Source: an uncultured bacterium
GTDB lineage: Bacteria; Patescibacteriota; Saccharimonadia; UBA4664
Assembly (NCBI GenBank): GCA_963720265.1
Contig: CAVRET010000002.1
Coordinates: forward strand, 878,069 to 942,068
Reading direction: 5' to 3'
Length of the DNA: 64,000 bases
A model generated the notes under the pieces. It made no database searches. It was given only the letters and a program-made list of their open reading frames with translations, and had not been told where the DNA came from. Within the stretch, counting starts at the first letter, position 1. Each line of letters opens with the position of its first letter. Below, in pieces: positions 28,972 through 47,871 of this stretch. Position numbers and translations under genes: made by a program.

Positions 28972-29044
28972 TGGACGAAACCAACGGCTTGCCCTGGAGG
29001 CCCGCATCCGCGACTATATCTTTAACATAAGTGGAGAGGGTGCG

Positions 29045-32342: not shown

Positions 32343-32487
32343 GCTGTAGCGGCTTCTACTGTCGGTTCCCTTTTGCGCAGTTTATGCATTGCGCACAGTG
32401 TGAAGAGGATGGGTCGACGCTAAGTGAAACCATATACGCTAACTTTCAAGCGTTTTAGATGGCTTACGTTTCAGATACAATAAGCTC

Positions 32488-35460: not shown

Positions 35461-37099
35461 AGAGGCCGACAAGCAGAAACTTAGAGGCGGTTATTACACA
35501 CCTCAACCCATAGCGCGATTTCTGGTAGATTGGGCGTTGAATGGAGGCGAATCCGTGCCCCGCGTTTTAGAGCCAAGTATGGGTGATGGTGCCTTTGTGA
35601 TAGAACTCGCTAGAGCTTTGAGAGATCGAGGTGTTAAGGCGGGACAAATTGGCCCCACTATACACGGCGTCGAGTTATTCCCCGAAGAGATCGAGACTGC
35701 AAAGCAAAGACTCGAAGGGAGTGCCTTTGATTCCAGCTCCTTCAGTTTTTACTCTGGCGACTTTTTTGAAACTTCCAGGACGTATTTGGAAAATCAGAAA
35801 TTTGATATCGTCCTTGGCAACCCTCCATTCATTAGGTACCAAAGTTTTCCAGACGCGCAACGTGACGAAGCGATGTCGCAGCTGTCGGCACTGGGTTTTA
35901 AGCTCAATAAGCTTACGAACGCTTGGCTGTTCTTCTTGCTGAGGAGCATCACCATGATGAAGGACAAAAGCCGTTTAGCAATGGTCATTCCTGCTGAACT
36001 TCTTCAGGTAAAGTACGCTGCCGAAGCGCGAGAATTTATTGCGGAGCATTTTAGTTCAGTTACCGTCGTAACATTTAAGAGTCTGGTCTTCGATGGCATT
36101 CAACAAGAGGTAGTACTTCTGCTGGCCGAGAAAAATCCTGCATCGCCATCTCATGGAATCGACGTAGTTGAAATTGAAAACCTAGTCGCCTTAAAGAATT
36201 TTAAACATGCACTTAAAGATCCGGGGCACCTTAAGCCGATAGAACATCAGACCGACAAGTGGACGCAATACTTCCTGAGTAAAGAGGAGATCCTTCTTTT
36301 ACGGAAGATTAGGGCATTGCAAGGACTTACAGAAATGCGGCAGCTTGCTTCGGTCGACGTGGGTATCGTTACTGGCAACAACAAATTTTTCGTAGTGAGC
36401 CAAGATCAGGCTGAACAACACAATATTCTCAATAGTACGGTGCCTCTGGTCGGAAAGAGCGCAAGCCTGATGGGACTAGATTTCGGTAAAGATAAGTGGA
36501 AGGAGTTAGCCACGCTTGGACTTCCCTCACACCTGCTATTCCTAAAGGATTCTGACCCTGTAGGTGAAAGAGTTAGCGAATACCTTGATCTCGGTATTCA
36601 AGCTGAAGTTCACAAAGGCTACAAATGCAGAATACGTAAGAACTGGTACGTTGTGCCATCAACATGGATTTCTGATGCTTTCCTTCTAAGACAAATCCAC
36701 GGCTTCCCGAAGCTTATCCTAAACTCCGCCGGAGCGGCTTGCACAGATACAATACACAGGGTTCGCTTCGCAGAACACGTAAATCCCAACGCCATGGCAG
36801 TTAGTTTCTTTAATTCACTGACATTCGCAATGTCTGAGGTTATCGGGCGCAGCTACGGCGGCGGGGTGCTAGAGCTCGAGCCGAATGAGGCAGAGGAACT
36901 GTTGATACCATACATGGAAGGCTCAGGCGGCCTGTTTCAGAAGATAGACGGGCTGGTGCGAGCCAGCAAGATCGAAGAGGCTCTCGACATTGTGGATGCC
37001 GCAGTGCTGAGCGCGGGGATAGGGCTAGAGCGAGACGACCTCACCCGAATGAGAGGAATCTGGAGAAAGCTTTCCGCAAGACGTATCGGCAGAAGGTGA
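35444..37099 (+). CDS. N6-adenine DNA methyltransferase (companion methylase of the Type IIG system)
   Basis: Motif I EPSMGDGAFV and motif IV LGNPPFIRYQ. Its start overlaps the Type IIG gene's stop by 17 nt. The arrangement matches Eco57I plus M.Eco57I. Confidence 0.7.
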   Translation: MVVAAEEADKQKLRGGYYTPQPIARFLVDWALNGGESVPRVLEPSMGDGAFVIELARALRDRGVKAGQIGPTIHGVELFPEEIETAKQRLEGSAFDSSSFSFYSGDFFETSRTYLENQKFDIVLGNPPFIRYQSFPDAQRDEAMSQLSALGFKLNKLTNAWLFFLLRSITMMKDKSRLAMVIPAELLQVKYAAEAREFIAEHFSSVTVVTFKSLVFDGIQQEVVLLLAEKNPASPSHGIDVVEIENLVALKNFKHALKDPGHLKPIEHQTDKWTQYFLSKEEILLLRKIRALQGLTEMRQLASVDVGIVTGNNKFFVVSQDQAEQHNILNSTVPLVGKSASLMGLDFGKDKWKELATLGLPSHLLFLKDSDPVGERVSEYLDLGIQAEVHKGYKCRIRKNWYVVPSTWISDAFLLRQIHGFPKLILNSAGAACTDTIHRVRFAEHVNPNAMAVSFFNSLTFAMSEVIGRSYGGGVLELEPNEAEELLIPYMEGSGGLFQKIDGLVRASKIEEALDIVDAAVLSAGIGLERDDLTRMRGIWRKLSARRIGRR

Positions 37100-37108
37100 A
37101 CAGACCGA

Positions 37109-37447
37109 CTAGGATTTCCGAACCTGACCTTTTCGCAACCTCTTCACTAAGTGGTTTACTTCGGCAACGTTAACTTCTGTTGTCTTCCATCCTTGGGGGG
37201 TCAGCTCCCAGCGAGCAGTGCCTGTGGATTTAATCAAACCATACATTCGCAGATATGTCCTTGCCCAGGAGGCGCGGTAGGATAGCTTTGTTGCCTTATC
37301 CTTGTGAATCTCTTGCCGCTGAGCCTCAGTTAGGCCCATTAGATCAGCTATTTCAGCGTTAATCTCGGCGTTGACGCCAGAACCACCAAGCTCCTTAAGT
37401 GATTGGATGGTGGGGTTGAACATCTCAAAATATTGGGGCACTGCCAT
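37109..37447 (-). CDS. stand-alone Mrr_N-like winged-helix protein (112 aa)
   Basis: MAVPQYFEMFNPTIQSLKELGGSGVNAEINAEIADLMGLTEAQRQEIHKDKATKLSYRASWARTYLRMYGLIKSTGTARWELTPQGW follows the Mrr N-terminal domain pattern (conserved W-A-RTYL...GLI...G.W.LT..G). Confidence 0.55.
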   Translation of the reverse strand: MAVPQYFEMFNPTIQSLKELGGSGVNAEINAEIADLMGLTEAQRQEIHKDKATKLSYRASWARTYLRMYGLIKSTGTARWELTPQGWKTTEVNVAEVNHLVKRLRKGQVRKS

Positions 37448-37544
37448 CTGGAGTATTCGTTACAAGCGTTATTATGCATGCGCATGCAAAATTGAGCAAA
37501 CACGAAGTCACCAGGAAGAGCAGTGCGATTGCGTCATAAGTGGT

Positions 37545-38393
37545 TTACTGAGACGAAGCTAATCTGCTCGTTGCACGTGCCTCCATCTTGTCTCCGGTTA
37601 TTTCGGATGTATAGTACCGACCACTAAGCAAGTTCAAAACACCATCAAGAGATTTGGTAGTGTTTACGACCAATTTCCCACTTGTATTCGTTTCGACGCC
37701 ACACTCAGGATATCGCGTAGCGTATTGCCGTATTTTTTCTTGGGTTTCTTCGTCGTCTAGGTTAATTGATTCGTCTGCGAGAATTGCAGCGATACGGCGA
37801 GAGGCCCTCATACCGATTCGGCCTATGTCTAAGCCGTTGCTGTCAAATAGGCTATAGTTGGCAAATTTCTCCTTGTCCTCTCTTGTGGCTTCTTTGAAAA
37901 AGTCTTCGATCCCAGCAAATAATGTCCTGATTTTTGAGAAGTTTCTAAAATATAGTCGGCCATTCCCGTCATAATATGTATCTACTAAACCCGTGAACTC
38001 TATGGCATGTTCCTCTTTGTCCATCTTAGGGGTGCCACTAAAGTTCAAGAAACGCTTGTTTTCAATCCGGTATTTTCCTGTGATCTTCGTGAAGAGTATC
38101 TCATTATCACGGATTAGGAACACAACGTCGACTTCGTTATAGTCCTGCCGGCTAACTCGATTTTGGTCACCACTGCTCTCGGCGCTTTCGTAGTACGGGC
38201 CCATCATACTATTCTGCTGCTCGGTATCTAAGTCTACGTAATACCATTCATCTGCCTCAAGTCCCTGCTCCGGATCGAAGTTACGCAACCTAGTGAGGTC
38301 CTCCGGAGCTCGGTAAAAATTCAACTCGCTTATGTCATTGGCGTCGCTGAAAACAACTTTGAAGCTTTTAGATTTTAGCTTAGCAAGAAACAT
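37545..38393 (-). CDS. hypothetical cytoplasmic protein (282 aa); candidate KwaB-like partner
   Basis: ORF track. AT-rich. It starts 4 nt after the upstream 4-TM gene. No motif recognised. Confidence 0.45.
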   Translation of the reverse strand: MFLAKLKSKSFKVVFSDANDISELNFYRAPEDLTRLRNFDPEQGLEADEWYYVDLDTEQQNSMMGPYYESAESSGDQNRVSRQDYNEVDVVFLIRDNEILFTKITGKYRIENKRFLNFSGTPKMDKEEHAIEFTGLVDTYYDGNGRLYFRNFSKIRTLFAGIEDFFKEATREDKEKFANYSLFDSNGLDIGRIGMRASRRIAAILADESINLDDEETQEKIRQYATRYPECGVETNTSGKLVVNTTKSLDGVLNLLSGRYYTSEITGDKMEARATSRLASSQ

Positions 38394-38397
38394 TGCA

Positions 38398-38970
38398 CTA
38401 TTTTACCTCCAGGAAGGTGTATTCATTGATTCGGCGAAGCCCATTGAACTGCTGAGATTGCTTTAAATCTTGCCGTTTCGTTATCAATGTAAATGTGTTC
38501 TCCTGAGCAGTTTTAGCCTCATAGAACCTGAAGCCAAACAGAATCCAGATTGGGTTAAAATAAAACACTCTTTCGAAGTAGCCCCACAGAATGAGCAGGA
38601 CGGCGAGGACTACGAATGATTGTGCAATTTTGTCGTCCTTTAGACCGAGTGCAATTACGAAAAGTCCAATATATGTGGGCATTGCTGTACTTTCGATGGG
38701 TTTTATCTCCCGAACATCGAGCGTGTCGCCAGATTTGAATACGCTCGAGGCAATTTTCAGTGTAACCCAGGAAAATATAACGAAGATTACTGTTAGAAAA
38801 ACGATTTTGGCAACATAGCCCTCCCAGTTTGCCTGAAAACTGGGAGGCAATGACGCATAAGGGACATCAAACGGAGTCACAATCAGAAAAAAATAAATCA
38901 CGCCGAGGAACGAGCTCAAGGTGAGCAGGCGTTTTGTTAGCAATTCGATTAGAGCAAGTACAGTGCTCAC
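38398..38970 (-). CDS. 4-TM small membrane protein (190 aa); candidate KwaA-like
   Basis: Four hydrophobic segments (LGVIYFFLIVTP, IVFLTVIFVIFSWVTL, YIGLFVIALGL and FVVLAVLLILWGYF) are followed by a cytoplasmic tail. Confidence 0.5.
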   Translation of the reverse strand: MSTVLALIELLTKRLLTLSSFLGVIYFFLIVTPFDVPYASLPPSFQANWEGYVAKIVFLTVIFVIFSWVTLKIASSVFKSGDTLDVREIKPIESTAMPTYIGLFVIALGLKDDKIAQSFVVLAVLLILWGYFERVFYFNPIWILFGFRFYEAKTAQENTFTLITKRQDLKQSQQFNGLRRINEYTFLEVK

Positions 38971-39190
38971 CCCACCCTGCCCCTCTGCCTTGGTTCGATA
39001 TGCTTCTTCATTTCGCTACTATAAGGCATTTACCTCTCCCCTGTCTTCCCATCGTAAGGACAGCTCTGGGGCCATCAATGTCGTTCTGCCGTGGGGAGCT
39101 CCACATTGACGGCCAGCCCGCGCTGTCCTTGCCCTTGGGCCAGGGCGAGAGGTCGACTCGGCCGGAGTTAATAAGAAAGGAGTGTGTGAT

Positions 39191-39511
39191 ATGGAGACTC
39201 AAACAGAGCAACGGAAGATGATCGCGGAGTTAAATGATGCGTTTCGGCGCGGAGGGTTTGGTGTGACGGTGACGCAAGGAGTGAGGGCAATTGAGGACTT
39301 GCCGGGGTTGATGCGGGCGGTGAGGGCGTTTGATACGTTTACCGAGGATAACGATCCGTACGGTGAACACGATTTCGGCAGCATCGTTTGGCATGACGAG
39401 ACGGTGCTGTGGAAGGTAGATTACTACGACCGGGCGCTGAAAGGGGGTGAGAATCCGCTGTCACGGCATTGCCGGCGGGTGCTGACGGTGATGTTGGCCG
39501 AAGAGTATTAG
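39191..39511 (+). CDS. DUF3768-like protein (107 aa)
   Basis: AAAGGAG lies 8 nt before the ATG at 39191. The motif FDTFTEDNDPYGEHDFG matches my recollection of the DUF3768 conserved core found on conjugative plasmids and ICEs. Confidence 0.45.
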   Translation: METQTEQRKMIAELNDAFRRGGFGVTVTQGVRAIEDLPGLMRAVRAFDTFTEDNDPYGEHDFGSIVWHDETVLWKVDYYDRALKGGENPLSRHCRRVLTVMLAEEY

Positions 39512-39526
39512 AGAAGGGCCCGGAGC

Positions 39527-39961
39527 TTACGAGGCTTCCGGGCCTTTTTCTTGGGTCGAAGGAAATTCCGCTATGCCGCCGCCGCCTTGCGCGACCAATA
39601 GCCTATTTGAACCCTCAAACGTCCACGCTTCGTAGCCTGAGGAAGAAATGTATATCTCGAGCTCATTCTTGTTGCCAAACGTGATTCTAACGTCACCAAG
39701 GGCCTCAATGATTGCAGTCGTCACTTTACCGCCAAGCAGCTTTTTTGCATCAACCGCTGCGTCAATTGGCTCAGGCATACCAAACTTCTGGCTATGATCC
39801 ATGTCGCAGAGCAATACTTGTCCATTGCCAGTTATGCGCCAAAACGATGCAACCCTAAATTGGTTTCCAGAATCAAACTTGAAAATCCAATCGCGCGTCT
39901 GCTCGCCGTATGTTATTACCTCCAGACTGGATCCGATAATTTCCGAGATTAGGCTCTTCAT
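39527..39961 (-). CDS. hypothetical protein (144 aa)
   Basis: ORF track. It overlaps the upstream gene's stop (39958..39961). Confidence 0.4.
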   Translation of the reverse strand: MKSLISEIIGSSLEVITYGEQTRDWIFKFDSGNQFRVASFWRITGNGQVLLCDMDHSQKFGMPEPIDAAVDAKKLLGGKVTTAIIEALGDVRITFGNKNELEIYISSSGYEAWTFEGSNRLLVAQGGGGIAEFPSTQEKGPEAS

Positions 39962-40713
39962 TGGCTAATTGTAGCAAATGCCGGGACCAACTGGCCGAGG
40001 GCTACCACCTTGAAATGGATGTCGTCCTCGAACGTATTCTCAAGCTCAGCGGCGGCAAATCGCTGGAGGCGACGGCGCAAGTTGTCGGATTCGCAGATCA
40101 GTAGCACGGTTGGCAGTTTGGTGTGGGTGGCCGCCTCCCACTCCCCTTCTTCGGCGTACTCAATGTACTCTTGGATGCGCTTTTTGTGCTGGAAGCTGGG
40201 AGTGGCCTCGAGGCAGATCTCGAGGAAGTACTGCCTTTCCTGGTTGCCCTTGCCGATACGGGAATAGGCGTCCGGGCGGGATTCGGGGAAGTCCTCATAA
40301 TGGTAGAGCTCTGCCTTGGTGAAGAATTCCAGTCGGTCACCGAAACGCCGTTCGAGCTCAACGTTAGCGTCCCCGGCCATCAGGCAGCGGCGGATGAAGG
40401 GCTCCTGGGCGTCTTTATCCTTGTACATGTTGTGCAGGACGGACTTGCTGACATCCGGGTCGAATTGTTTGAGGGCCTTCATGCCGGCCGGCAGCAGGTA
40501 GTACGAAGCGGGAAGTCCAGCAAGCCTTTGGGATCCGTCGTAGTTGCGGCCGATAAGACCTTTCTCAACTAACGAGTTTAGTCTTGGCTGGACATTGCTG
40601 ATGTGTTTGATCCCTAAGGCTTGCTGGACGTGTTTGGTACTGATGAACCGGAATCGGTAGATTAGGGTGAGGATTGTTTGTTGTTGTTTTGTGAGTGGTT
40701 GTGTTTTGTTCAT
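39958..40713 (-). CDS. replication-relaxation family protein (251 aa), paralog of 17304..18179
   Basis: LTKQQQTILTLIYRFRFISTKHVQQALGIKHISNVQPRLNSLVEKGLIG aligns with the N-terminus of the element-1 protein. Confidence 0.5.
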   Translation of the reverse strand: MNKTQPLTKQQQTILTLIYRFRFISTKHVQQALGIKHISNVQPRLNSLVEKGLIGRNYDGSQRLAGLPASYYLLPAGMKALKQFDPDVSKSVLHNMYKDKDAQEPFIRRCLMAGDANVELERRFGDRLEFFTKAELYHYEDFPESRPDAYSRIGKGNQERQYFLEICLEATPSFQHKKRIQEYIEYAEEGEWEAATHTKLPTVLLICESDNLRRRLQRFAAAELENTFEDDIHFKVVALGQLVPAFATISQ

Positions 40714-40807
40714 AGCGAATGCGCATATACGTAAGTATATAGGAGGGAGACTGTTTTGGTGCCTTCACATCTGGCGCAGGATAGCATAAAAGCATAAACC
40801 GATTTAT

Positions 40808-43432
40808 TCACTTGGCCACCTTGTGCTTCTTCTGCGGCCGGCGGTCTTCGGGTTTGCGGTCCGGGTCTTTTTCGGCCGGTTTGTCCTTGGGCTGCGAGGA
40901 TGGCTGACTAGTTGATGGGGGTGCCGGCTTGCGGCTGTAGTGCTCACGCGAGTAATCGACTACGCGCCGCGCCACTGAGTCACTCCCCTCTTCCGGCGGC
41001 AGGATAGTTTCGCCCGAGAATGGTTCCTGGGTCTTGATACCGGCGATGCGCATGTAGAAGTTGTACGCCGGGAGGTTTGCGATCTCGCCGGCATCGATGT
41101 AGGGCGCGAAGAACGGCAGCAGGAGCTTCTCGTCGGCCGGGTTGCCGGTACGGAAGCAGACGAGCGTGCCGACGTTGGCCAGGATGACCTGTACCATGAG
41201 CTGGTCTTTTTGCTGGGAGGTGGATTGCTCGGCCAGAGTCATGTATAGGCGGTACTTTCTGGCTTCGGATAGCATTTGGACAAACGAGGCGGTGGCGAAA
41301 TTCTGGAACTCGTCAACATACAGATAGAATGGCCGGCGGTCTTCTTGAAGAATTCGGGCGCGGCGGAGTGCTGCCATTTGCAGTTTGGCCAATACAGTTA
41401 TTCCGAAAAGCTCGGAAGTATCTTCACCTAGCAAGCCTTTGGAGAAGTTGCAGACCAGGACTTTGCCGGAATTCATGATGTCGTCGAAGTCGATGGTGGA
41501 TTTGGGCTGTTCGAGGATGCGCTTGGCGGAGGCCGAGAACAAGAAGCGGCCGATCTTGGCGGTGATGCCGGCGGCCATCTTGACTCGCTGGAAGTTGCCG
41601 GCCTTGCCTAGCTCGTTTTGCCAGAAGTTTTTAAGGTCTTTATCTTGGAGCTTGGAGACGACTTGCTTGCGGTACCTGGGATCGTTCAGGAGGTCAAAGA
41701 CCGTGAACAGGGTTGCGCCCTGCTGGGTTAGCGCCGTCTGGACGGCGTTTCGGAGCACATATTCAATCCGGTGGCCGCCTTCGTCTTCTTCCGAGAAGAT
41801 TTTGCGGAATACGGATATGGTCGCTTCCGTCACCAGGTCCTTTTCGCGCAAGAGTTCATCGTCCGTTAAGCCCTCCCGCAGCTCAAGTAGATTGAGGCCG
41901 ATAGGGTGGCCGAGGTCGTCGGGGCTGAAATATATAACGTCTTTTACTCGCTCTTCCGGGATATGGCTGATGAGCGTTTCCGCCGCATCGCCGTGCGGGT
42001 CGATGAACGCAAAGCCCTTCCCCTTATGAGCATCCTGAATCATGGCCCCAAGCATCAAGGTGGTTTTACCGTTACCGGTACCGCCGATGATGTAGGCATG
42101 CCGCTCGCGATCTTTGGCGGTGAGGCCAATTTCGGTGGCGGTTCCATGATGGTGGTTAACCCCTATCGGTATGACGAATTCGTTGGCATCGGCATACTGC
42201 TTAAGGAGGAGAGGCGCGGGAAGCGTTCTGCTATGTGACTTAACCAAATTTTCGGTCTGAGAGCTATCGGCATACGGGAAGTGGTAAAGGTCTCCCATTT
42301 CTGACGCCGCCAGCACGCTAGAACGCCACATTAGAATTGACGGCAGACGGTGCCGGAATTTGAACAAACTGTATCTTTGCCAAAGTCTGCGGGGAAATGT
42401 CCGACCAACTCCAAGGCTCTGGTAACCCGGCATCCTCAGCGGGGCCAGTGACGCGTAGAGCGCGGCGATCTTCTTGTACCGGCTGTACTGGCTCGATGCG
42501 GCAACATAGCCCCTGATATCTGCCCGAAAAAGATCATGCCCTAGCTTTTCAAGCATCCTGTCGTGTATGCGCTGCTGGGCGGCAGTTCTTTCGTCGTTGG
42601 CTGCTGATTTCTGGCTGGGACGAGGTGATGGAAGGTCCATACCCGCTACCGCTGCGATCAGGCCTACAATGAAGGCTAGGAATAGAAATGCAGCTAGCAG
42701 TGCCAAGCCAACGGCAACTAGCACAATGAGCAGCGTAGTAGCGAGGAAGTAACGCCTGAACTTATGCTCTAGGAGCGGGCTCGATCCTCTGAGCAGCTTT
42801 TTATGAACCTTACGGGCCTCCCGGCCGAAGTACGGCGTGAGCACCACCTGAAGCGCCACGGTCTCGCCTGGTTCTAGTTTGGTCATGGCGCCGGCGATGT
42901 AAGCTATTGGGTCATGCTGGCCGAGCGAGTCTTGGGCGTTCAGTGGGTGCGCAAAGTGACGATTTTGGCTGTACTCGAGCACCCGGACATACGGCGCAGC
43001 CTGATCCGATACGCTGTACGGAGGCTCTTTTACCACCTGAAAGCGTGCGTTGGGGAGGTAGGCTGCCAAGCTCTGCTGCAATACAGCAATGTCTGCCTGG
43101 TGAACTTGAATCAAGTAACGGATGCCGTGCTCTCGGGTGGACAGTACTTCAAGTGAGACTATCTGGCTGCGATTCAAGAGTCGGTCGCGCCAGGATCGCC
43201 ACGAAGTGATGCTATGCAGTACGGCGAACAAGTGTTTCGTTGCAAGCGGGCTTTTATCTGAGAAGGCCGGCGGCGTAACTTCGAGGAAGACTAGATTTCG
43301 CTGAAGATTGCGCCGGAGATTGAGTAGGCGGATCGCTAGGTCGAGCAGGATGAAGAATACAAGCAAAACGACCGCCACCAGTAGCCAGTGGCGCAAGAGT
43401 AGCTCTCGCAAAAGCTCGATATTCCGCTGCAT
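40808..43432 (-). CDS. TraD/TraG/VirD4-like coupling-protein family P-loop ATPase with N-terminal TM segments (874 aa)
   Basis: N-terminal hydrophobic helices, Walker A YIIGGTGNGKTT and Walker B FYLYVDEFQNF. It is paralogous to 14997..17303. Confidence 0.7.
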   Translation of the reverse strand: MQRNIELLRELLLRHWLLVAVVLLVFFILLDLAIRLLNLRRNLQRNLVFLEVTPPAFSDKSPLATKHLFAVLHSITSWRSWRDRLLNRSQIVSLEVLSTREHGIRYLIQVHQADIAVLQQSLAAYLPNARFQVVKEPPYSVSDQAAPYVRVLEYSQNRHFAHPLNAQDSLGQHDPIAYIAGAMTKLEPGETVALQVVLTPYFGREARKVHKKLLRGSSPLLEHKFRRYFLATTLLIVLVAVGLALLAAFLFLAFIVGLIAAVAGMDLPSPRPSQKSAANDERTAAQQRIHDRMLEKLGHDLFRADIRGYVAASSQYSRYKKIAALYASLAPLRMPGYQSLGVGRTFPRRLWQRYSLFKFRHRLPSILMWRSSVLAASEMGDLYHFPYADSSQTENLVKSHSRTLPAPLLLKQYADANEFVIPIGVNHHHGTATEIGLTAKDRERHAYIIGGTGNGKTTLMLGAMIQDAHKGKGFAFIDPHGDAAETLISHIPEERVKDVIYFSPDDLGHPIGLNLLELREGLTDDELLREKDLVTEATISVFRKIFSEEDEGGHRIEYVLRNAVQTALTQQGATLFTVFDLLNDPRYRKQVVSKLQDKDLKNFWQNELGKAGNFQRVKMAAGITAKIGRFLFSASAKRILEQPKSTIDFDDIMNSGKVLVCNFSKGLLGEDTSELFGITVLAKLQMAALRRARILQEDRRPFYLYVDEFQNFATASFVQMLSEARKYRLYMTLAEQSTSQQKDQLMVQVILANVGTLVCFRTGNPADEKLLLPFFAPYIDAGEIANLPAYNFYMRIAGIKTQEPFSGETILPPEEGSDSVARRVVDYSREHYSRKPAPPSTSQPSSQPKDKPAEKDPDRKPEDRRPQKKHKVAK

Positions 43433-43530
43433 AATCGCAAAATCACCTTACAGATTTGTAGCACAATGCTAACGGATAGCGAACGCGACGACAAATATTA
43501 AAACTCACACCATGTATCCAGACACGAAGA

Positions 43531-43552
43531 TGGACCCTGGTTTCCCAGGGTC
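43531..43552. terminator. perfect hairpin GGACCCTGG-tttc-CCAGGGTCC between the 162-aa gene and the TraD-like gene
   Basis: Read directly from the sequence. On the minus-strand transcript it is followed by a moderately U-rich stretch. Confidence 0.4.
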
Positions 43553-43595
43553 CACTCGCTAGTGCTTGTTCCTTCTGTCCCTCCTGCCGCGGGGG

Positions 43596-44084
43596 CTAGG
43601 CCGCCTTGGTCGTGATGGCCGTCGCATCCCGGAAGATGAGGTCGTGGCACTCCGGGAAGTTGAAGCTCGACGGCCGGTCGTCGCGCATCATCCGGTAGAG
43701 CCGCTCCACCATCTCGGGCCAGTGCGGGAAGGCCCGCATGTACCGGGCAACCTCTTCGGCGAAGGGGTTGGAGGTGTGGCCGCTGTGCAGCATGACCAGG
43801 ACGGCGTTCGACGAGTAGCGGTGCGCGGCGGCCTGGGCGGCCGCGATGCCGGTGTAGCGCCGGCTGATGCGGCCCCGGGGGCCAACGTAGAGGTAAACGC
43901 CCCAATACTCGTCCAGCAGGGCGTTGATGATGGGGCGGGCGGCGCGGTAGTCGAACTCGCGCAGGCTCTTGCCGTGCTTGGTCATCAGGATCTTGAGGAT
44001 CTGCAGCCAGACATCGCGGCGGCCGTGCTGGATGACGGCCGGGCGGGCGATGTCGGAAGTGATCCATTCCGGGCTGTCGGCCAT
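43596..44084 (-). CDS. hypothetical protein (162 aa), markedly high GC (mid 60s %)
   Basis: The minus-strand reading is protein-like (MADSPEWITSDIARPAVIQHGRRDVWLQILK...). The overlapping plus-strand and alternative-frame ORFs look like GC-rich artefacts. Confidence 0.4.
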   Translation of the reverse strand: MADSPEWITSDIARPAVIQHGRRDVWLQILKILMTKHGKSLREFDYRAARPIINALLDEYWGVYLYVGPRGRISRRYTGIAAAQAAAHRYSSNAVLVMLHSGHTSNPFAEEVARYMRAFPHWPEMVERLYRMMRDDRPSSFNFPECHDLIFRDATAITTKAA

Positions 44085-44391
44085 GGAGATCTCCTGTTTC
44101 TGCCGGGTCGAAGGGGTCGGGTTGTAAAGCGTTCTAGCAATGAGAATTACTAACTTCTCAGGAGTTAATTATAGCATAAATTGCCGCTTTACACAAGTCT
44201 CGGAGCAGGCTGGGCTTCGATGACTGAGTTTTTACGCGCGTTTTTTTTGATTGTAGAGCCATTTCTTGATTGGATAGCCACAATACTAAACCGAGGTGGG
44301 CATAGGAGACACTTGTGCCTACTGATTTTGTGACATCTGAGCAAATGCGATCATTCCAGTATATTTATGGCTCGCCCGCATCAACATACAC

Positions 44392-45825
44392 CTAAGGGGT
44401 TTTGACCCTTCGCTCAATCAGTAAGCCAATGCCTGATACCCTGAGGTGTAGGCCCAGGTTTGACATAATTACGCGCTTTTCTCCTGGCGAGCTGTTGATG
44501 TACAGTCGCACGATTGGGTTGGGCGCTTCAATCTCGGGCCTTGTGGTACCGTTAATGCCCTCGGCCTCATGAAGCCTTTGGAGCCGCTCTGCGAGTTGAG
44601 CCAACTGAGATTCGAGCTCTTGGGCCTTGCCCGCATAGCGGTCTTGGCTAATCTCTCCAGCCAGTTTCTCTTCGTAAAGCCTTTCTTGCATACGTTTGGT
44701 ACGTTGAACTTGGGCGTTAATGGATTCAACCACTTTTGCCCGGTACGCACCGACTGTCTCGGCCGGCCGGCTTTTTTCTATCGCCTGCTTGAGACCTGTG
44801 ATCACGGCTCCGTTTGAGTCATGGATCTTCTCAAGTAGGTCAATAACCTTTTGCTCAACCCGGTCTTCGCGCAAGCCCTTCCCACTACAAGCTGCCTTTG
44901 TGCGCTGGCAGTATCCATAATAGCGCCCTTTTTGCTTTTCCCAGCTAACCAGCCCGCCACAAGAGTCGCATCGAACCATGCCCTTAAAGACAGGGTCGTG
45001 TTTCCTGGACCTACTGAGGGACTTGCGGTGTAGTTTTGCCTGCACCTGATCAAATAGCTCTTGGCTTATGATTGGTTCCTGCGCGCCGGGATATTCCTTG
45101 CCATCGAGCCGGTTGATTCCGATGTAGAACGGGTTGCCCAACATCTTGGCCACAGCACTCTTTACATGCGGATGCCCATGCTTGGTAACAATGCCCATCG
45201 CGGCCATCTCCAATGTAATGGATTGGACGCTGTGATTGGGCGTCATGTATAGCTCGAATACACGCTGGACAAGGGCCATGGTTGCAGGATTGGGCACGTG
45301 AATGCGCTTGCCGGCTTCGGTGATGGTCATGTACCCCGGCGGCGGCGGAGCGGGCAGCCAACCTTGCGCAAGTTTTTCGGCCCATCCCTTCATGACTTCT
45401 TCCCGGAGATTGTCCGTGTACTTCTTGGCCAGGGCCAGATTGATACTCCACATAAACTTGGTGTCGGATCGAGACTTCTTTTGTAGGACTTGTCCCTCCT
45501 TTACCAGATGCAACGTGCGGCGCTCATCGCTTTCGAGCCAATCATCGATGCGAGCGGCGTCGCGGAGGTTGCGGGTAAGGCGGTCGGTTTTTTCTACCAC
45601 CAGGTGGAGGACTCTGTCCTTTGTAATTACCTTCAGCATCTCCTGGAACACGGTGCGTCGCAGTTGTTTGGAAGCGGTTTCAGTGATGCGGAATTCCCGA
45701 ACCACTGTAAGCTCTTTGGCGGCGCAATAGTCGCGAAGGAGTTTGATTTGTGAATCAAGGGAGTAGCCTTCGTCTTCTTGTGACTTACTCGAAACCCTAG
45801 CCAGAATGATGGCTTTTGTCTGCAT
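44392..45825 (-). CDS. large serine recombinase
   Basis: AIILARVSSKSQ catalytic motif and a C-terminal zinc ribbon (CDSCGG...YCQRTKAAC), 477 aa. Confidence 0.8.
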   Translation of the reverse strand: MQTKAIILARVSSKSQEDEGYSLDSQIKLLRDYCAAKELTVVREFRITETASKQLRRTVFQEMLKVITKDRVLHLVVEKTDRLTRNLRDAARIDDWLESDERRTLHLVKEGQVLQKKSRSDTKFMWSINLALAKKYTDNLREEVMKGWAEKLAQGWLPAPPPPGYMTITEAGKRIHVPNPATMALVQRVFELYMTPNHSVQSITLEMAAMGIVTKHGHPHVKSAVAKMLGNPFYIGINRLDGKEYPGAQEPIISQELFDQVQAKLHRKSLSRSRKHDPVFKGMVRCDSCGGLVSWEKQKGRYYGYCQRTKAACSGKGLREDRVEQKVIDLLEKIHDSNGAVITGLKQAIEKSRPAETVGAYRAKVVESINAQVQRTKRMQERLYEEKLAGEISQDRYAGKAQELESQLAQLAERLQRLHEAEGINGTTRPEIEAPNPIVRLYINSSPGEKRVIMSNLGLHLRVSGIGLLIERRVKTP

Positions 45826-45908
45826 GTATCCCTCCTATGTGGGTTATATTTTGTCTTTGACACTATCAATATTTGGATATATTATCAATATATGGATAGC
45901 TCGGAGGG

Positions 45909-46235
45909 ATGAGCATGTTACAGCAACAGATGGAGCTACTGCCCACAGCGGGGACCGCATTAGCGTTAGTGCCGCCCGTCAGCGACAAGGCCCCGGCTCC
46001 GGTCGTCAAGGACCGCTCGCTTGAAGGCGCGATGATGCGAATTTTTCCTAAGAGTCAGGATGAAGCGCGACTGGAGCAGGCCCGCCGGATTATGGGCGAC
46101 GAGATTAATGCGCTTAGTGATGCGGAGCTGACCGAGCACTTGGCGCAGTTCCAGTACTTAATCGACCAGTGGCTTGATGAATTCGAGCGGCAAGCATTCG
46201 AGGGCCGGACGCTGCGGCAGATGATTGGGGGCTGA
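45909..46235 (+). CDS. hypothetical protein (108 aa) preceding the second recombinase
   Basis: ORF track. Its stop overlaps the recombinase start region. Confidence 0.35.
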   Translation: MSMLQQQMELLPTAGTALALVPPVSDKAPAPVVKDRSLEGAMMRIFPKSQDEARLEQARRIMGDEINALSDAELTEHLAQFQYLIDQWLDEFERQAFEGRTLRQMIGG

Positions 46236-46236
46236 C

Positions 46237-47871
46237 ATGGGTGGGCTTGCAGTGAAATCGGTGGTTCCGGAAACACGGCAAGCAGTACTGTATTTGCGCG
46301 TTTCGACCGAAGAGCAGGTCGAGAATTATTCCCTTGAGACGCAGGCTGAAATCTGCAAACGGGAGGCCGATCGGCGCGGACTTGAGATTGCCCAAGTCTT
46401 TCGAGAGGAGGGCCGATCGGCCAAAACCATGAAGGATAGGCCGGCACTTATTCAGCTTTTGGAGTTCTGCAGAAGGCACAAGCGTGAGGTTAATTCCGTT
46501 ATCGTTTACCGCTTGGATCGTATTTCGCGGCAGACGGCGGACTACCTGGCAATTCGCAAGAAACTGGCGGATTACGAAATTACTATCATTTCGGCCACGG
46601 AACCGACCGGCGACACTCCAACTGAGAAGTTCGTCGAGACACTATTGGCCGGCTTTGCTCAGATGGACAACGACGTCCGCAGCGAGCGAACTAAAAACGG
46701 GTTGCGGGCTAGGTTCCTGGCTGGACTACACAATGCGACTGCCCCGATGGGGTACAGGGCGCAAAACGGATATGTGGTGAAAGACCCCGAAACGTTTGAA
46801 AACATAAGGGCCGCTTGGGAGCTGATGGCGACCGGGACCAAGAGTTTGGGTGAGATTATTCAGTTTCTCAATGAGGCTGGCGTCCGGAACCGGCGCAAAG
46901 ATTATGGGGAGCGTACCTTGCGAAAGCAGACAGTCAGCAAGATGTTCCGGAACAAGTTTTACGCCGGCAAAGTTGTGTCGCGAAAGCACGGGCTTGAGGC
47001 ACAGGGGCAGCACGTACCGATGATTACCGAGGAGCTGTTTTACAAGGTGCAGGCCATACTGGACGGTCGGCTGACGGCATCCCCCGATCTTAGCCACCGC
47101 GTTCAGGACAAAGAGGACTTTCCGCTTCGCCGCGTCATTAAATGCTCAATTTGCTTGGAGCCCTTTACCGGCGCATGGAGCAAGGGTCGGCTGCGGCGGT
47201 ACGGGTACTACTTCTGCCACAAACGCTGTTATATGGGCAAGTCGGTGCCAGTTGATTTGGCCGAGGAGCACTTGGCCAAGCTGCTGACAAGTATCAGCCT
47301 AAAGTCCGAAACCATTGACCTGATCATGGACCGGATTCGCAAGCGCTACCAGGAGCGGTTAGCCCCGATCCTGAGGCTGCGAGACCAGGCCGACGCCGAG
47401 ATTAAGCGGCTCAAGGAGCTGCGGCAGGCCCTAATCACAAAGAACTTAACCGGCGTCTATTCCGACGACGTCTACAAGGAGCAGAATGCCATGCTTGAGG
47501 ACCAGCTAAAGACTGTCTACGAGGCTAAGAATGAAACAACGCTCGAGAAATACAAGCTCGAGGATATAAGCGCATTCATGCACGCCAAGTTCGAGGATTG
47601 GAACAAAACGTACCAGAAAGCGAGTCTGGAGCAGAAAAAAATTTTGCTGTGTTCGACATTCCCGGAAGGCATGATGTGGCAGTATCCAGGCTTGTCGAAC
47701 ACCAAAATAAGCCCTTTCTATAGGGCTTTTCTGGACGTTGAACAGGGGGATAAATTCTCTGGTGCGCGAGAGAGGAGTCGAACCTCCACGCCTTGCGGCA
47801 CTTGCCCCTCAGACAAGCGTGTCTACCATTCCACCACTCGCGCGGGTGGTAACCGGACAACTATAGCATAA
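46237..47871 (+). CDS. large serine recombinase/integrase; 3' end antisense across tRNA-Leu
   Basis: AVLYLRVSTEEQ and a C-terminal zinc ribbon (CSICLEPF...FCHKRC). The ATG at 46237 is the likely start, and the track start at 46225 is TTG. The last approximately 37 codons lie opposite the tRNA. Confidence 0.75.
   Translation: MGGLAVKSVVPETRQAVLYLRVSTEEQVENYSLETQAEICKREADRRGLEIAQVFREEGRSAKTMKDRPALIQLLEFCRRHKREVNSVIVYRLDRISRQTADYLAIRKKLADYEITIISATEPTGDTPTEKFVETLLAGFAQMDNDVRSERTKNGLRARFLAGLHNATAPMGYRAQNGYVVKDPETFENIRAAWELMATGTKSLGEIIQFLNEAGVRNRRKDYGERTLRKQTVSKMFRNKFYAGKVVSRKHGLEAQGQHVPMITEELFYKVQAILDGRLTASPDLSHRVQDKEDFPLRRVIKCSICLEPFTGAWSKGRLRRYGYYFCHKRCYMGKSVPVDLAEEHLAKLLTSISLKSETIDLIMDRIRKRYQERLAPILRLRDQADAEIKRLKELRQALITKNLTGVYSDDVYKEQNAMLEDQLKTVYEAKNETTLEKYKLEDISAFMHAKFEDWNKTYQKASLEQKKILLCSTFPEGMMWQYPGLSNTKISPFYRAFLDVEQGDKFSGARERSRTSTPCGTCPSDKRVYHSTTRAGGNRTTIA
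47760..47843 (-). tRNA. tRNA-Leu (anticodon GAG), long variable arm
   Basis: The complement reads GCGCGAGTGGTGGAATGGTAGACACGCTTGTCTGAGGGGCAAGTGCCGCAAGGCGTGGAGGTTCGACTCCTCTCTCGCGCACCA. It has acceptor stem GCGCGAG/CTCGCGC, anticodon loop CTGAGGG (GAG), an approximately 13-nt variable arm, T-loop TTCGACT and an encoded CCA. Confidence 0.75.

What the first reader, a model, noticed from the sequence alone, without database searches (positions are those of the whole stretch)
39182..47871. Second integrative element at tRNA-Leu with paralogous TraD-like and replication-relaxation genes, two divergent serine recombinases and a strikingly high-GC gene
Element 2 repeats the element-1 core but adds a DUF3768 gene (typical of conjugative plasmids), a second oppositely oriented serine recombinase (44392..45825, possibly a nested or tandem element, or an inversion system), and a 162-aa gene at 43596..44084 whose GC (mid 60s %) far exceeds the genome background. 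Replication-relaxation and TraD/TraB-like proteins are hallmarks of high-GC actinobacterial AICEs. One hypothesis is cross-phylum acquisition from a high-GC (for example actinobacterial) donor. The stable hairpin at 43531..43552 separates the high-GC gene from the ATPase gene.
Basis: partly seen in the sequence, partly recalled or inferred. Interest (0 to 1): 0.6.

Follow-up and report, generated by a model that had tools for sequence, protein, structure and literature searches.

The report
Mobilizable island in a Saccharibacteria genome
This is a small integrated mobile element in what appears to be a tiny parasitic bacterium (Saccharibacteria): it carries its own DNA-transfer genes and one oddly GC-rich cargo gene, and the evidence does not support import from a high-GC actinobacterial donor.

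Summary
Every listed gene is present at the stated coordinates, and the 162-aa gene is a real compositional outlier (GC 67.5%, GC3 94.5%).

[quoted passage not shown] It has:
- a MOBC-type (Replic_Relax) relaxase
- a VirD4-type coupling ATPase
- DUF3768
- two large serine recombinases, next to tRNA-Leu(GAG)

The backbone's relatives are overwhelmingly Candidatus Saccharibacteria, and its codon composition matches the host flank. Cross-phylum origin of the element is therefore not supported.

The GC-rich gene is a self-contained cassette: a -10 box, a conserved AT-rich 5' UTR, the CDS and a hairpin terminator. It sits in a variable cargo slot. Only six relatives exist among 1.84 billion representative proteins. 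The nearest (75% aa identity) is chromosomal in another Saccharimonadia genome. Every relative whose context could be read is GC-richer than most or all of its neighbours.

Other findings:
- The outer recombinase belongs to a large family whose genes run into the 3' end of many different tRNAs.
- A covarying ~120-nt hairpin precedes DUF3768 (candidate oriT).
- The left attachment site was not found.
- Defence genes and att-like relics suggest a composite island from about 27.2 to 47.8 kb.

The parts
47760..47843 (-). tRNA-Leu(GAG). This is the integration target. Its 3' end faces the element.
   Evidence: ARAGORN and Rfam RF00005 at 51.9 bits. The acceptor strands are complementary in the sequence.
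46225..47871 (+). Outer large serine recombinase (548-aa ORF). The last ~37 codons are read antisense through the tRNA. It is the presumed integrase for the tRNA-Leu site.
   Evidence: Pfam Resolvase and Recombinase above cut-off, Zn_ribbon_recom below cut-off. At least 141 relatives in metagenomes; 66 of 80 loci have an opposite-strand tRNA at the gene's 3' end, and in 58 the ORF's stop lies inside or beyond the tRNA.
45909..46235 (+). 108-aa protein that overlaps the recombinase start by 11 nt. It is a conserved partner of this recombinase family; a role as a directionality or accessory factor is inferred.
   Evidence: tblastn homologue in 75 of 80 related loci; where coordinates were listed it lies directly upstream of the recombinase. 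No Pfam, PHROG, NCBIfam or PDB match.
44392..45825 (-). Inner large serine recombinase (477 aa), divergent from the outer one. Its 3' end abuts the variable cargo slot.
   Evidence: Pfam. It is 25% identical to the outer recombinase. Close homologues occur only in L017 (73%) and L023 (74%), in the same divergent arrangement.
43525..44179 (-). GC3-extreme cargo cassette. It comprises a -10-like TGCTATAAT box and an ~85-nt 5' UTR (44085-44179, 44% GC), the 162-aa CDS (43596-44084, GC3 94.5%) and a hairpin terminator (43531-43554).
   Evidence: 83% DNA identity to L001-L004 over exactly this span and nothing beyond it. Composition, fold. dN/dS is 0.54.
40808..43432 (-). VirD4-type type IV coupling protein (874 aa) with an N-terminal DUF8128 region and a Walker A motif, GGTGNGKT.
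   Evidence: Pfam TraG-D_C and TrwB_AAD_bind above cut-off. NCBIfam TraD/VirD4-like hits, all far below their curated cut-offs. 638 homologues.
39958..40713 (-). Replic_Relax (PF13814, MOBC-family) putative relaxase, 251 aa.
   Evidence: Pfam 45.7 bits against a cut-off of 25.3. PF13814 is equated with MobC in PMC5357655. Homologues occur in 35 of 80 related loci.
39527..39961 (-). DUF6188 protein (144 aa). It is variable accessory content and is replaced by other genes in L017 and L018.
   Evidence: Pfam. tblastn finds no homologue of it in L017 or L018, and the gene tables show other genes at that position.
39182..39511 (+). DUF3768 protein (109 aa). It is the most conserved gene of the element.
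   Evidence: Pfam E 1.7e-25. 99% and 96% aa identity in L017 and L018. Present on 461 plasmids.
39033..39152 (+). Conserved ~120-nt imperfect hairpin immediately upstream of DUF3768, at the left end of the backbone. Candidate oriT, single-strand promoter or mRNA leader.
   Evidence: Nine sequences, 34 pairs. 88.9% of cells are paired against 37-52% when partners are slid. 15 pairs show compensatory changes; 0 of 500 shuffles reach the observed score. G-T wobbles number 24 against 7 A-C. DNA fold z = -2.59. No Rfam match.
28162..39024 (.). Defence-gene stretch adjoining the backbone: Mrr_cat, a PD-(D/E)XK/Cas4-like nuclease, a DpnI-like protein, a type IIG R-M enzyme plus methyltransferase (32488-37099), Mrr_N, and Kiwa KwaB/KwaA (37545-38970). 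It is either variable cargo of the same element or a neighbouring island.
   Evidence: Pfam, NCBIfam and PADLOC. Related elements have different defence genes at the same place.
27164..28161 (+). Two ~94-nt direct repeats (27164-27257 and 28067-28161) flanking a PIN/RHH toxin-antitoxin pair. Each repeat contains a degenerate copy of the junction between the recombinase 3' end and the tRNA-Leu 3' end. They are read as att-like relics.
   Evidence: the repeat finder families D1/D2. 28085-28123 aligns with 47750-47783 at score 25, against shuffles of 14.7 +/- 1.9 (0 of 300 reach it). TA domains.

Best explanation
[quoted passage not shown] It lies in what is most likely a Saccharibacteria (Patescibacteria) chromosome, beside the 3' end of tRNA-Leu(GAG).

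**Inferred mechanism.**
- The outer large serine recombinase, with its 108-aa partner, recombines an attP that overlaps the 3' end of its own gene with the 3' part of the tRNA.
- After excision, the MOBC-type Replic_Relax protein nicks an oriT. The conserved ~120-nt hairpin upstream of DUF3768 is the best candidate for that site.
- The element's own VirD4-type coupling protein then hands the DNA to a type IV secretion system encoded elsewhere in the genome.
- The element carries no mating-pore genes, so it must be mobilized by that other system.

**Cargo.**
- Variable cargo sits at two places. One is the slot downstream of the inner recombinase. The other, probably, is the defence-gene stretch to the left of DUF3768.
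- The 162-aa gene is a moron-like cassette in the first slot, with its own promoter, leader and terminator.
- Its extreme GC3 is a conserved property of this small gene family inside mid-GC genomes.
- That property is more likely kept by selection on synonymous sites (the host's preferred C/G-ending codons pushed to the limit, as for a highly expressed gene) than left over from recent import from Actinobacteria.

**Shown versus inferred.** Shown: gene content, relatives, composition, conservation and covariation. Inferred: excision, nicking, transfer, expression level and the protein's function.
For: **Host**
- The ATPase has 638 homologues with E <= 1e-10; of the best hits that carry an organism name, nearly all are Candidatus Saccharimonadales/Saccharibacteria.
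- The four closest GTDB loci are Candidatus Saccharibacteria MAGs; the weaker ones carry other labels.
- The source contig is 1,108,292 bp.

**IME identity**
- Pfam gives Replic_Relax, TrwB_AAD_bind/TraG-D_C and two large serine recombinases. None of the eight proteins scanned in 39-48 kb matches a mating-pore family.
- IMEs that combine a MobC relaxase, their own VirD4 coupling protein and a serine integrase are described in streptococci (PMC5357655, PMC5704250).
- 5,713 VirD4-like coupling proteins are reported in Patescibacteria, mostly far from virB4, and 39 relaxase genes lie next to a coupling-protein gene (PMC12102498).

**Related elements**
- L017 and L018 share the module of coupling protein, relaxase and DUF3768 at 77-99% aa identity.
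- DNA similarity ends at window 39033-39041 in both.

**Recombinase family**
- In 66 of 80 loci the relatives have an opposite-strand tRNA at the gene's 3' end, and in 58 the ORF's stop lies inside or beyond it. At least 12 tRNA amino-acid types are involved.
- Direct repeats of the terminal 19-21 nt of the tRNA bound 9.6- and 10.5-kb elements in L024 and L071.

**Hairpin**
- Strong covariation across nine sequences.

**Cassette**
- Conservation stops exactly at the promoter and at the terminator.
- The slot holds three unrelated genes in the window, L017 (146 aa, GC3 0.905) and L023 (GC3 0.43).
- Codon choice is the host's favoured set taken to the extreme: C3 61%, G3 33%. L33 in L001 has GC3 0.83.
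- Family members in the four other contexts that could be read (L001-L004, L019, L020, L103) are GC3-richer than most or all neighbours: 0.91, 0.79, 0.66 and 0.71.
- The co-inherited 5' UTR is 44% GC.
- 13 of the 28 third-position differences from the L001 copy are G<->C changes.
Against: - No displaced copy of the tRNA-Leu 3' end (at most 3 mismatches in 21 nt) exists anywhere in the window. There are no significant terminal repeats. attL is therefore unidentified and the element may be immobile.
- The assembly graph of run ERR11523669 gives no sign of an excised circle or an empty site. Its contig breaks are explained by the tRNA and by a conserved 33-nt motif.
- No type IV secretion genes are in the window, and the rest of the genome could not be inspected.
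- Host assignment rests on homologue labels, not on a marker gene in the window.
- Codon optimisation is inferred from one 53-codon ribosomal gene in a different genome.
- The protein's Arg/Lys ratio (11.1% against 2.5%) looks like that of a high-GC proteome.
- The function of the 162-aa protein is unknown. The AlphaFold model is weak (pLDDT 64) and Foldseek against PDB gave nothing.
Confidence: 0.7

Rival explanations
1. The 162-aa cassette (or the whole element) was recently acquired across phyla from a high-GC donor of about 70% GC, such as an actinobacterium. Actinobacteria are known hosts of Saccharibacteria (my own knowledge; not checked in the papers read here). On this view the GC3 is an unameliorated donor signature.
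For: - GC3 of 94.5% corresponds to a genome of about 70% GC.
- The codon set (GCC, GGC, CGC/CGG, CTG, ATC, AAG, GAG) is also the typical actinobacterial set (the actinobacterial comparison is from memory).
- Arg is 11% and Lys 2.5%.
- A second, unrelated GC3-rich gene (0.905) occupies the same slot in L017.
- One distant relative, L103, sits beside an F420H2-dependent quinone reductase gene. From memory, that gene type is commoner in Actinobacteria and Chloroflexi.
Against: - The backbone's relatives are nearly all Saccharibacteria, and its GC3 equals the host's.
- A full HMMER scan of 1.84 billion representatives found only six relatives. Every one whose context could be read lies in a contig of 47-54% GC.
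- Nothing was found in 72,556 plasmids or 50,697 phages.
- The nearest copy is in another Saccharimonadia chromosome and has kept GC3 at 0.91 despite dS of 0.27.
- The cassette's own promoter and UTR are 44% GC.
Confidence: 0.2
2. The region is a decayed, no longer mobile remnant. It would be part of a composite island built by successive integrations at tRNA-Leu (about 27.2-47.8 kb), with the original left attachment site lost.
For: - No tRNA-Leu direct repeat exists.
- Degenerate att-like repeats at 27164-27257 and 28067-28161 resemble the right junction.
- Different defence genes lie next to the same backbone end in L017 and L018.
- Logan contig L008 runs uninterrupted across 39041.
Against: - All backbone ORFs are intact and long. 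The nearest relatives keep 73-99% protein identity, which suggests recent activity.
- Serine recombinases need only a 2-bp shared core, so a missing long repeat is not proof of decay.
- The att-like repeats do not match the present tRNA acceptor stem.
Confidence: 0.35
3. The inner recombinase marks a nested or independent mini-element (inner recombinase plus cargo cassette), or it drives capture and exchange of cassettes at its own 3' end. On this view it is not a second integrase for the whole element.
For: - The variable slot starts at or near the 3' end of the inner recombinase gene. This parallels the outer recombinase, whose attachment site overlaps its own 3' end.
- Three related elements carry three unrelated genes there, in both orientations and with GC3 from 0.43 to 0.95.
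Against: - No repeats or tRNA-like sequence bound the slot.
- In L001-L004, whose short contigs carry no called recombinase gene, the same cassette is present.
- The pair occurs only in one small clade.
Confidence: 0.25

Closest known systems
Streptococcal IMEs that encode a MobC (PF13814) relaxase, their own VirD4 coupling protein and a serine integrase (Coluzzi et al. 2017, PMC5357655; review PMC5704250)
   Same: The same three-part module: Replic_Relax/MOBC relaxase, VirD4-type coupling protein and serine recombinase. Both are small and lack mating-pore genes, so they are presumed to hijack a resident type IV secretion system.
   Different: - The host phylum is Patescibacteria.
- The target is the 3' end of a tRNA gene, not the interior of a protein-coding gene. 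In those papers the tRNA-targeting IMEs all use tyrosine recombinases.
- There are two divergent large serine recombinases plus a conserved 108-aa partner.
- A DUF3768 gene and a covarying hairpin are present.
Orphan VirD4-like coupling proteins and scattered MOBC relaxases of Patescibacteria (Quinonero-Coronel et al. 2025, PMC12102498)
   Same: The 874-aa ATPase belongs to this population. It lies far from any virB4 and next to a MOBC-like gene.
   Different: That study did not place these genes in delimited integrative elements. It considered the coupling proteins possibly exapted. Here they sit in recombinase-bounded, tRNA-associated elements.
[quoted passage not shown]
   Same: Small size (~9-17 kb), integration at tRNA genes, and one ATPase for DNA transfer.
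   Different: From my own knowledge, AICEs use an FtsK-like TraB double-strand DNA translocase, a Rep protein, and mostly tyrosine integrases in Actinobacteria. Here the ATPase is VirD4/TrwB-type, a relaxase is present and the host is not an actinomycete.
Phage 'morons' (independent promoter-gene-terminator units of deviant composition inserted between backbone genes; from memory, Hendrix and colleagues)
   Same: The 162-aa cassette has its own -10 box, leader and terminator and a deviant composition. It sits between two backbone genes and is absent from a related element (L018).
   Different: The carrier is an IME, not a phage. The same cassette also occurs in a chromosome. The compositional deviation is confined to third codon positions.
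Tycheposons of Prochlorococcus (bioRxiv 10.1101/2020.12.28.424599)
   Same: They are tRNA-associated integrative elements with cargo, and a minority (27 of 937) carry a large serine recombinase instead of a tyrosine recombinase.
   Different: They have no relaxase or coupling-protein module. Many carry replication or capsid-interference genes. No overlap of the recombinase gene with the tRNA was mentioned in the passages I read.
pAD1 oriT2/TraX/TraW system of Enterococcus faecalis (Francia and Clewell 2002; from memory, not read here)
   Same: It is the MOBC prototype: a relaxase plus a TraG-like coupling protein, with an oriT that contains a large (~140 bp) inverted repeat. That resembles the ~120-nt hairpin found here.
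   Different: It is a conjugative plasmid of Firmicutes. Sequence similarity of the repeats was not tested, and the nick site here is unknown.

Membership tests
Integrative and mobilizable element (IME) | Encodes its own site-specific recombinase for integration and excision | tested here: met
   Two large serine recombinases with Resolvase and Recombinase domains above cut-off (Zn_ribbon_recom above cut-off only for the inner one) and the catalytic-serine context RVS(T/S).
Integrative and mobilizable element (IME) | Carries a relaxase and/or oriT but no mating-pore (VirB4 etc.) genes | tested here: met
   Replic_Relax scores 45.7 bits against a cut-off of 25.3. None of the eight proteins scanned in 39-48 kb matches a mating-pore family; the coupling protein's only VirB4-like hit is 23 bits against a cut-off of 643.
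Integrative and mobilizable element (IME) | Bounded by attL and attR at a specific target site | tested here: inconclusive
   The right end lies at the tRNA-Leu 3' end. No displaced tRNA copy or terminal repeat was found. Related elements L071 and L024 do show 19-21-nt repeats.
Integrative and mobilizable element (IME) | Excises and is transferred with the help of a conjugative system | not testable with these tools
   Needs junction reads or mating experiments. The Logan contigs give no evidence of alternative junctions.
Actinomycete ICE (AICE) | FtsK/SpoIIIE-like TraB double-strand DNA translocase | tested here: not met
   The ATPase matches TrwB_AAD_bind, TraG-D_C and, well below their cut-offs, SXT_TraD/VirD4-like models. 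No FtsK/SpoIIIE family was reported.
Actinomycete ICE (AICE) | Replication initiator (RepSA, RepAM or prim-pol) and an actinobacterial host | tested here: not met
   No Rep family was found among the element proteins. Nearly all labelled homologues are Saccharibacteria.
MOBC relaxase (PF13814, TraX-like) | Significant match to the Replic_Relax profile over most of its length | tested here: met
   Residues 15-195 match profile positions 1-184 of 191, E 1e-11.
MOBC relaxase (PF13814, TraX-like) | Restriction-endonuclease-like catalytic residues and site-specific nicking at oriT | not tested
   Catalytic motifs were not examined. Nicking needs biochemistry.
VirD4-type type IV coupling protein | Walker A/B NTPase with TrwB/TraG domains and an N-terminal membrane anchor | tested here: met
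   GGTGNGKT and DEFQ motifs, and a hydrophobic stretch at about residues 230-265, are visible in the alignment. Pfam domains are above cut-off.
Large serine recombinase | Resolvase N-terminal domain, Recombinase domain and zinc ribbon | tested here: met
   Both proteins. The outer one's zinc ribbon is below the Pfam cut-off (18.6 against 25.3 bits). NCBIfam CcrB/XisF-like hits are well below their equivalog cut-offs.
Moron-like cargo cassette | Own promoter and terminator, deviant composition, and presence/absence polymorphism between related elements | tested here: met
   TGCTATAAT box, AGGAG ribosome-binding site and hairpin terminator. GC3 z = 3.9. The slot is empty in L018 and holds other genes in L017 and L023. 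The consensus promoter scan found no full sigma-70 site, and expression was not tested.

The most novel reading that the evidence does not exclude
The cargo slot of these Saccharibacteria elements collects self-contained genes written in near-pure G/C-ending codons (the window's 162-aa gene and L017's 146-aa gene) because they are meant to be expressed in the high-GC host bacterium. On this reading the episymbiont's type IV secretion system, together with the element's own relaxase and coupling protein, delivers the element DNA into the host cell. The strand-specific hairpin upstream of DUF3768 would serve as an early single-strand promoter. This would be cross-phylum delivery of effector genes by a parasite.
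Probability: 0.04. Interest if true: 0.9.

Novelty: new variant of a known kind. Interest (0 to 1): 0.55.

Why it matters
**An open question becomes testable.** Patescibacteria carry thousands of orphan VirD4-like coupling proteins, and their type IV secretion system is thought to have lost its role in conjugation because relaxases seemed absent (PMC12102498). This locus and its relatives place such coupling proteins inside compact elements that lie next to tRNAs and are bounded by a recombinase. These elements also carry a divergent MOBC-like protein and a covarying hairpin. That supports the idea that DNA mobilisation through the patescibacterial secretion system is still in use, and it supplies concrete parts to test: the relaxase, a candidate oriT and the attachment sites.

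**A recombinase family of wider interest.** The finding also exposes a large family of serine recombinases that has been retargeted to many different tRNA 3' ends. This bears on integrase specificity and on tools for the few genetically tractable Saccharibacteria.

**A caution on method.** Extreme GC3 in a single gene is not by itself evidence of a high-GC donor.

Tried and rejected
1. **Logan contig as an excision product.** The 8,651-bp Logan contig (window 39139-47789) looked like evidence of excision. I rejected this. Its right break, and the start of the next contig, coincide with the two ends of the tRNA, which acts as a repeat node. Its left break falls in a 33-nt motif that is identical in L017 and differs by one base in L018.
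2. **Displaced tRNA-Leu 3' end.** Searches with 33-, 21- and 16-mers allowing mismatches found nothing. The single 3-mismatch hit at 27385 is at chance level.
3. **Repeats between the element ends.** Direct and inverted alignments scored within the shuffle range.
4. **Crossover at the CCA end.** I considered a crossover there, with 'CCTCTCCCC' as an attB arm. I dropped it because that stretch is the outer 5' arm of the conserved hairpin.
5. **A tRNA-like reading of 39136-39168.** The similarity score was at chance level.
7. **Plasmid and phage searches.** tblastn of the 162-aa protein against plasmids and phages gave no match.
8. **Look-ups that failed.** P0134 and P0096 (the third coupling-protein paralogue on the source contig) were not on record.
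9. **Left-end motif in viral contigs.** The DNA pattern for the left end found nothing in IMG/VR.
10. **PDB sequence searches.** The 108-aa protein and DUF3768 gave nothing significant.
11. **DUF3768 neighbourhoods.** Two plasmids showed no consistent functional context.

Full report
**1. What is in the sequence**

Pfam assigns:

| Coordinates | Product |
|---|---|
| 39182-39511 (+) | DUF3768 |
| 39527-39961 (-) | DUF6188 |
| 39958-40713 (-) | Replic_Relax |
| 40808-43432 (-) | 874-aa ATPase with TrwB_AAD_bind and TraG-D_C |
| 44392-45825 (-) | large serine recombinase |
| 46225-47871 (+) | large serine recombinase |

- tRNA-Leu(GAG) lies at 47760-47843 on the minus strand.
- The outer recombinase ORF reaches 47871 only because it reads antisense through the whole tRNA.
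- The 162-aa ORF at 43596-44084(-) has no family match in Pfam, PHROGs, NCBIfam or PADLOC.

**2. The GC claim**

- Per codon position, the 162-aa gene has GC1 0.61, GC2 0.47 and GC3 0.945.
- The 44 other genes of the window average GC3 0.603 +/- 0.087, with a maximum of 0.779.
- Recoding the same protein with local codon usage gives 0.684 +/- 0.036. The maximum of 5000 draws is 0.809.
- The outlier is therefore real, and it is a third-position phenomenon.
- The window itself is a mosaic: ~48% GC at 1-12 kb, ~59% at 13-19 kb, 46-50% at 31-39 kb, ~54% in the element and ~59% at 48-64 kb.
- The hairpin at 43531-43554 has an 11-bp stem and a GAAA loop. It lies 45 nt past the stop codon and folds well (z = -2.96).

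**3. Host and backbone relatives**

- The ATPase has 638 homologues with E <= 1e-10. The top 120 are all at least 50% identical. Of those that carry an organism name, all but one are Candidatus Saccharimonadales/Saccharibacteria; one is labelled Verrucomicrobiae.
- The four closest loci in one-genome-per-species GTDB contigs are Candidatus Saccharibacteria MAGs; the weaker matches carry other labels.
- Every window protein I looked up is a singleton on one 1,108,292-bp contig. That contig also carries a further paralogue of the ATPase, P0096.
- A 1.1-Mb contig fits a complete Saccharibacteria genome (my own knowledge of typical sizes). The assignment remains an inference, because no marker gene lies in the window.
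- Backbone GC3 (0.61-0.71 for the conserved genes; the variable DUF6188 gene is 0.52) equals that of the right flank (0.60-0.78).

**4. What kind of element**

- PF13814 is the MOBC relaxase family.
- Streptococcal IMEs with a MobC relaxase, their own VirD4 coupling protein and a serine integrase have been described (PMC5357655, PMC5704250).
- The ATPase is VirD4/TrwB-like, with a Walker A motif (GGTGNGKT) and a DEFQ motif. It is not an FtsK-like TraB.
- No replication initiator and no mating-pore protein was found among the eight proteins scanned in 39-48 kb.
- This is therefore an IME and not an AICE.
- It fits the report of 5,713 VirD4-like coupling proteins in Patescibacteria, mostly far from virB4, with a few MOBC genes next to them (PMC12102498).
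- Element 1 (about 13-21.4 kb, at tRNA-Val) has the same architecture but is deeply divergent:
  - ATPases: 29% identity.
  - Replic_Relax proteins: barely alignable.
  - Recombinases: 29% identity.

**5. Related elements and the left end**

- L017 has the same gene order, with these protein identities:

| Protein | Identity to window |
|---|---|
| ATPase | 83% |
| Replic_Relax | 88% |
| DUF3768 | 99% |
| Outer recombinase | 95% |
| 108-aa protein | 90% |
| Inner recombinase | 73% |

- L018 shares only the ATPase, relaxase and DUF3768 module, and tblastn finds no homologue of either recombinase in it.
- DNA similarity to both ends at window 39033-39041.
- Beyond that point each locus has different defence genes:
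  - Window: Kiwa, Mrr_N and a type IIG R-M system.
  - L017: GmrSD, Vsr and Dcm.
  - L018: IS110, an rve-family integrase/transposase, a UvrD-like helicase and an Eco57I-like enzyme.

**6. A conserved hairpin**

- The ~140 nt between the backbone end and the DUF3768 start are the most conserved DNA of the element (89-91% identity).
- Upstream regions of DUF3768 genes from six more distant loci (56-61% aa identity) align to it.
- They share a long imperfect hairpin, at window 39033-39152. The counts are:
  - 34 pairs, with 88.9% of cells paired, against 37-52% when the partners are slid.
  - 15 pairs with compensatory changes, against 3-8 in the slid controls.
  - Covariation score 0.40, against 0.10-0.19.
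  - 0 of 500 shuffles reach the observed values.
- G-T wobbles outnumber A-C cells 24 to 7, so the structure is favoured on the DUF3768 sense strand.
- Rfam has no match.
- My preferred reading is oriT. From memory, the MOBC prototype pAD1 has an oriT with a ~140-bp inverted repeat. A single-strand promoter or an mRNA leader are alternatives.

**7. The outer recombinase family and the right end**

- A metagenome scan found at least 141 relatives at 50-66% identity.
- In 66 of the 80 loci kept, an opposite-strand tRNA gene sits at the recombinase gene's 3' end. In 58 of them the ORF's stop lies inside or beyond the tRNA.
- Conserved similarity ends at fixed offsets (-24, +18 or +27 nt) from the tRNA 3' end.
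- The tRNAs include Leu, Arg, Gly, Met, Phe, Lys, Asp, Glu, Pro, Ala, Ser and Tyr.
- A homologue of the 108-aa gene is found in 75 of 80 loci; where coordinates were listed it lies just upstream of the recombinase. Replic_Relax occurs in 35 loci and the ATPase in 19.
- Two loci show the displaced tRNA end:
  - L071 has 21 nt, exact, bounding a 10.5-kb element.
  - L024 has about 19 nt, bounding a 9.6-kb element.
  - These place the crossover within the last ~21 nt of the tRNA, up to the T-loop.
- By analogy, the window's right end lies at about 47760-47780.
- In the reviews I read, IMEs that target tRNA 3' ends use tyrosine recombinases, and serine-recombinase IMEs disrupt protein-coding genes.
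- A minority of tycheposons, which are tRNA-associated, carry large serine recombinases. The behaviour is therefore unusual but not without precedent.

**8. The missing left attachment site**

- No copy of the tRNA-Leu 3' end exists elsewhere in the window.
- There are no terminal repeats.
- There is no alternative junction in the Logan assembly of the same run.
- However, two ~94-nt direct repeats (27164-27257 and 28067-28161) flank a PIN/RHH toxin-antitoxin pair. Positions 28085-28123 align with the right junction at 47750-47783. This span includes 10 nt of recombinase-side sequence. The score is 25 against 14.7 +/- 1.9 in shuffles, and 0 of 300 shuffles reach it.
- I read these as att-like relics.
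- The island at tRNA-Leu may therefore be composite (27.2-47.8 kb). The defence stretch would be either cargo of the IME or an older neighbour.

**9. The GC-rich cassette**

- Relatives are very few:
  - Only two proteins in 5.8 billion match by word search.
  - Only six relatives appear in a full HMMER scan of 1.84 billion representatives.
  - None is found in plasmids or phages.
- The nearest relative is P0002, at 75% aa and 83% nt identity. It lies in contigs L001-L004.
  - The L33 protein of those contigs clusters at 90% identity with a Candidatus Saccharimonadia L33.
  - The context there is chromosomal (tRNAs, rpmG, rpiB, a HicB-like gene) and is not an IME.
  - The gene there has GC3 0.914 in a 54% GC contig.
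- DNA conservation between the two contexts covers exactly the -10 box, the ~85-nt leader, the CDS and the terminator.
- Part of the leader, and the terminator stem with paired changes, persist in a 42%-identical relative, L103.
- More distant members are also GC3-richer than most or all neighbours:
  - L019: 0.79 against ~0.45.
  - L020: 0.66 against ~0.45.
  - L103: 0.71 against 0.47-0.72.
- dN/dS is 0.54 and dS is 0.27. 13 of the 28 third-position differences are G<->C.
- Codon choice is the host's own preferred set pushed to the limit. The only ribosomal gene available, L33 in L001, has GC3 0.83.
- The co-inherited leader is 44% GC.
- Together these points favour a stable, selected property of the coding sequence over a fresh donor signature. 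The Arg-rich, Lys-poor composition keeps the foreign-origin idea alive.
- The same slot holds an unrelated 146-aa gene with GC3 0.905 in L017, a low-GC3 gene in L023 and nothing in L018. It is a cargo hot spot next to the 3' end of the inner recombinase.
- The protein's function is unknown. AlphaFold models are weak and there was no fold match.

**10. Verdict**

- It is wrong about the AICE analogy and about an actinobacterial origin of the element.
- The origin of the cassette is unproven, and the evidence leans against a recent high-GC donor.
- The element is a new variant of a known kind: an IME with a MOBC relaxase, a VirD4-type coupling protein and serine recombinases.
- It has several features worth following up:
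  - the recombinase family that overlaps tRNA genes;
  - the covarying hairpin;
  - the cargo slot.

Noticed in passing
window 13046-21452: Element 1 has the same architecture: a 768-aa VirD4-like ATPase, Replic_Relax, an N6/N4 DNA methylase and a large serine recombinase. The recombinase ORF (19749-21419) overlaps tRNA-Val(TAC) (21376-21452, minus strand) by 44 nt. All proteins are at most 29% identical to those of element 2.
   Followed up: partly
loci L023-L102 (metagenome contigs): Relatives of the outer recombinase have a tRNA gene on the opposite strand at their 3' end in 66 of 80 loci; in 58 the ORF runs into or through the tRNA's 3' end. At least 12 tRNA amino-acid types are involved. 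Direct repeats of the tRNA 3' end were found only in L071 (21 nt) and L024 (~19 nt).
   Followed up: partly
window 45909-46235, and related loci: A ~108-aa protein with no known domain has a homologue in 75 of 80 loci and overlaps the recombinase start in the window. It may be a directionality or accessory factor.
   Followed up: partly
window 39033-39152; L017, L018, L045, L053, L065, L070, L075, L083: A strongly covarying ~120-nt hairpin lies immediately upstream of DUF3768 genes. The invariant motifs include TCAAGGT / ACCTTGA and GAGGTCGAC. It is not in Rfam.
   Followed up: yes
L017 3488-3928 (minus strand): In the closest related element the same cargo slot holds an unrelated 146-aa gene. 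It has GC 67% and GC3 0.905, its own AT-rich promoter region and a terminator, and lies in the opposite orientation. It has no Pfam match.
   Followed up: partly
window 27164-28161: A PIN (27244-27636) and RHH/HicB-like (27644-27949) toxin-antitoxin pair is flanked by ~94-nt direct repeats at about 88-92% identity. The repeats contain a degenerate tRNA-3'-end-like motif. A Logan contig also breaks at 28118, inside the second repeat.
   Followed up: partly
window 28444-38970: A dense defence island: Mrr_cat nuclease, a PD-(D/E)XK/Cas4-like protein, a DpnI-like protein, a type IIG restriction-methylase (990 aa, PADLOC E 5e-256) plus a methyltransferase, Mrr_N, and Kiwa KwaB/KwaA. Much of it has 44-50% GC.
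   Followed up: partly
window 3244-11813: The low-GC left part of the window (~48%) carries an exonuclease I-like gene (3244-4695) and a 1086-aa protein that combines an Hsp70-like segment with a DEAD/ResIII helicase (8553-11813). Unannotated neighbours follow. This may be another defence or mobile region.
   Followed up: no
window 55296-63857: A very large ORF (2853 aa) whose only match is CBM_4_9 carbohydrate-binding repeats. It has a high GC2 (0.57). It is probably a surface protein.
   Followed up: no
source contig outside the window (protein P0096): A further ATPase of the same family (872 aa, 53% identical) is encoded on the same 1.1-Mb contig. The genome therefore carries at least three such coupling-protein genes. 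Its context could not be retrieved.
   Followed up: partly
window 25116-25559: A 147-aa ORF with 66% GC spread evenly over the three codon positions (0.69/0.62/0.67). It overlaps the 5' end of the 500-aa gene at 25529-27031. It is probably not a real gene.
   Followed up: no
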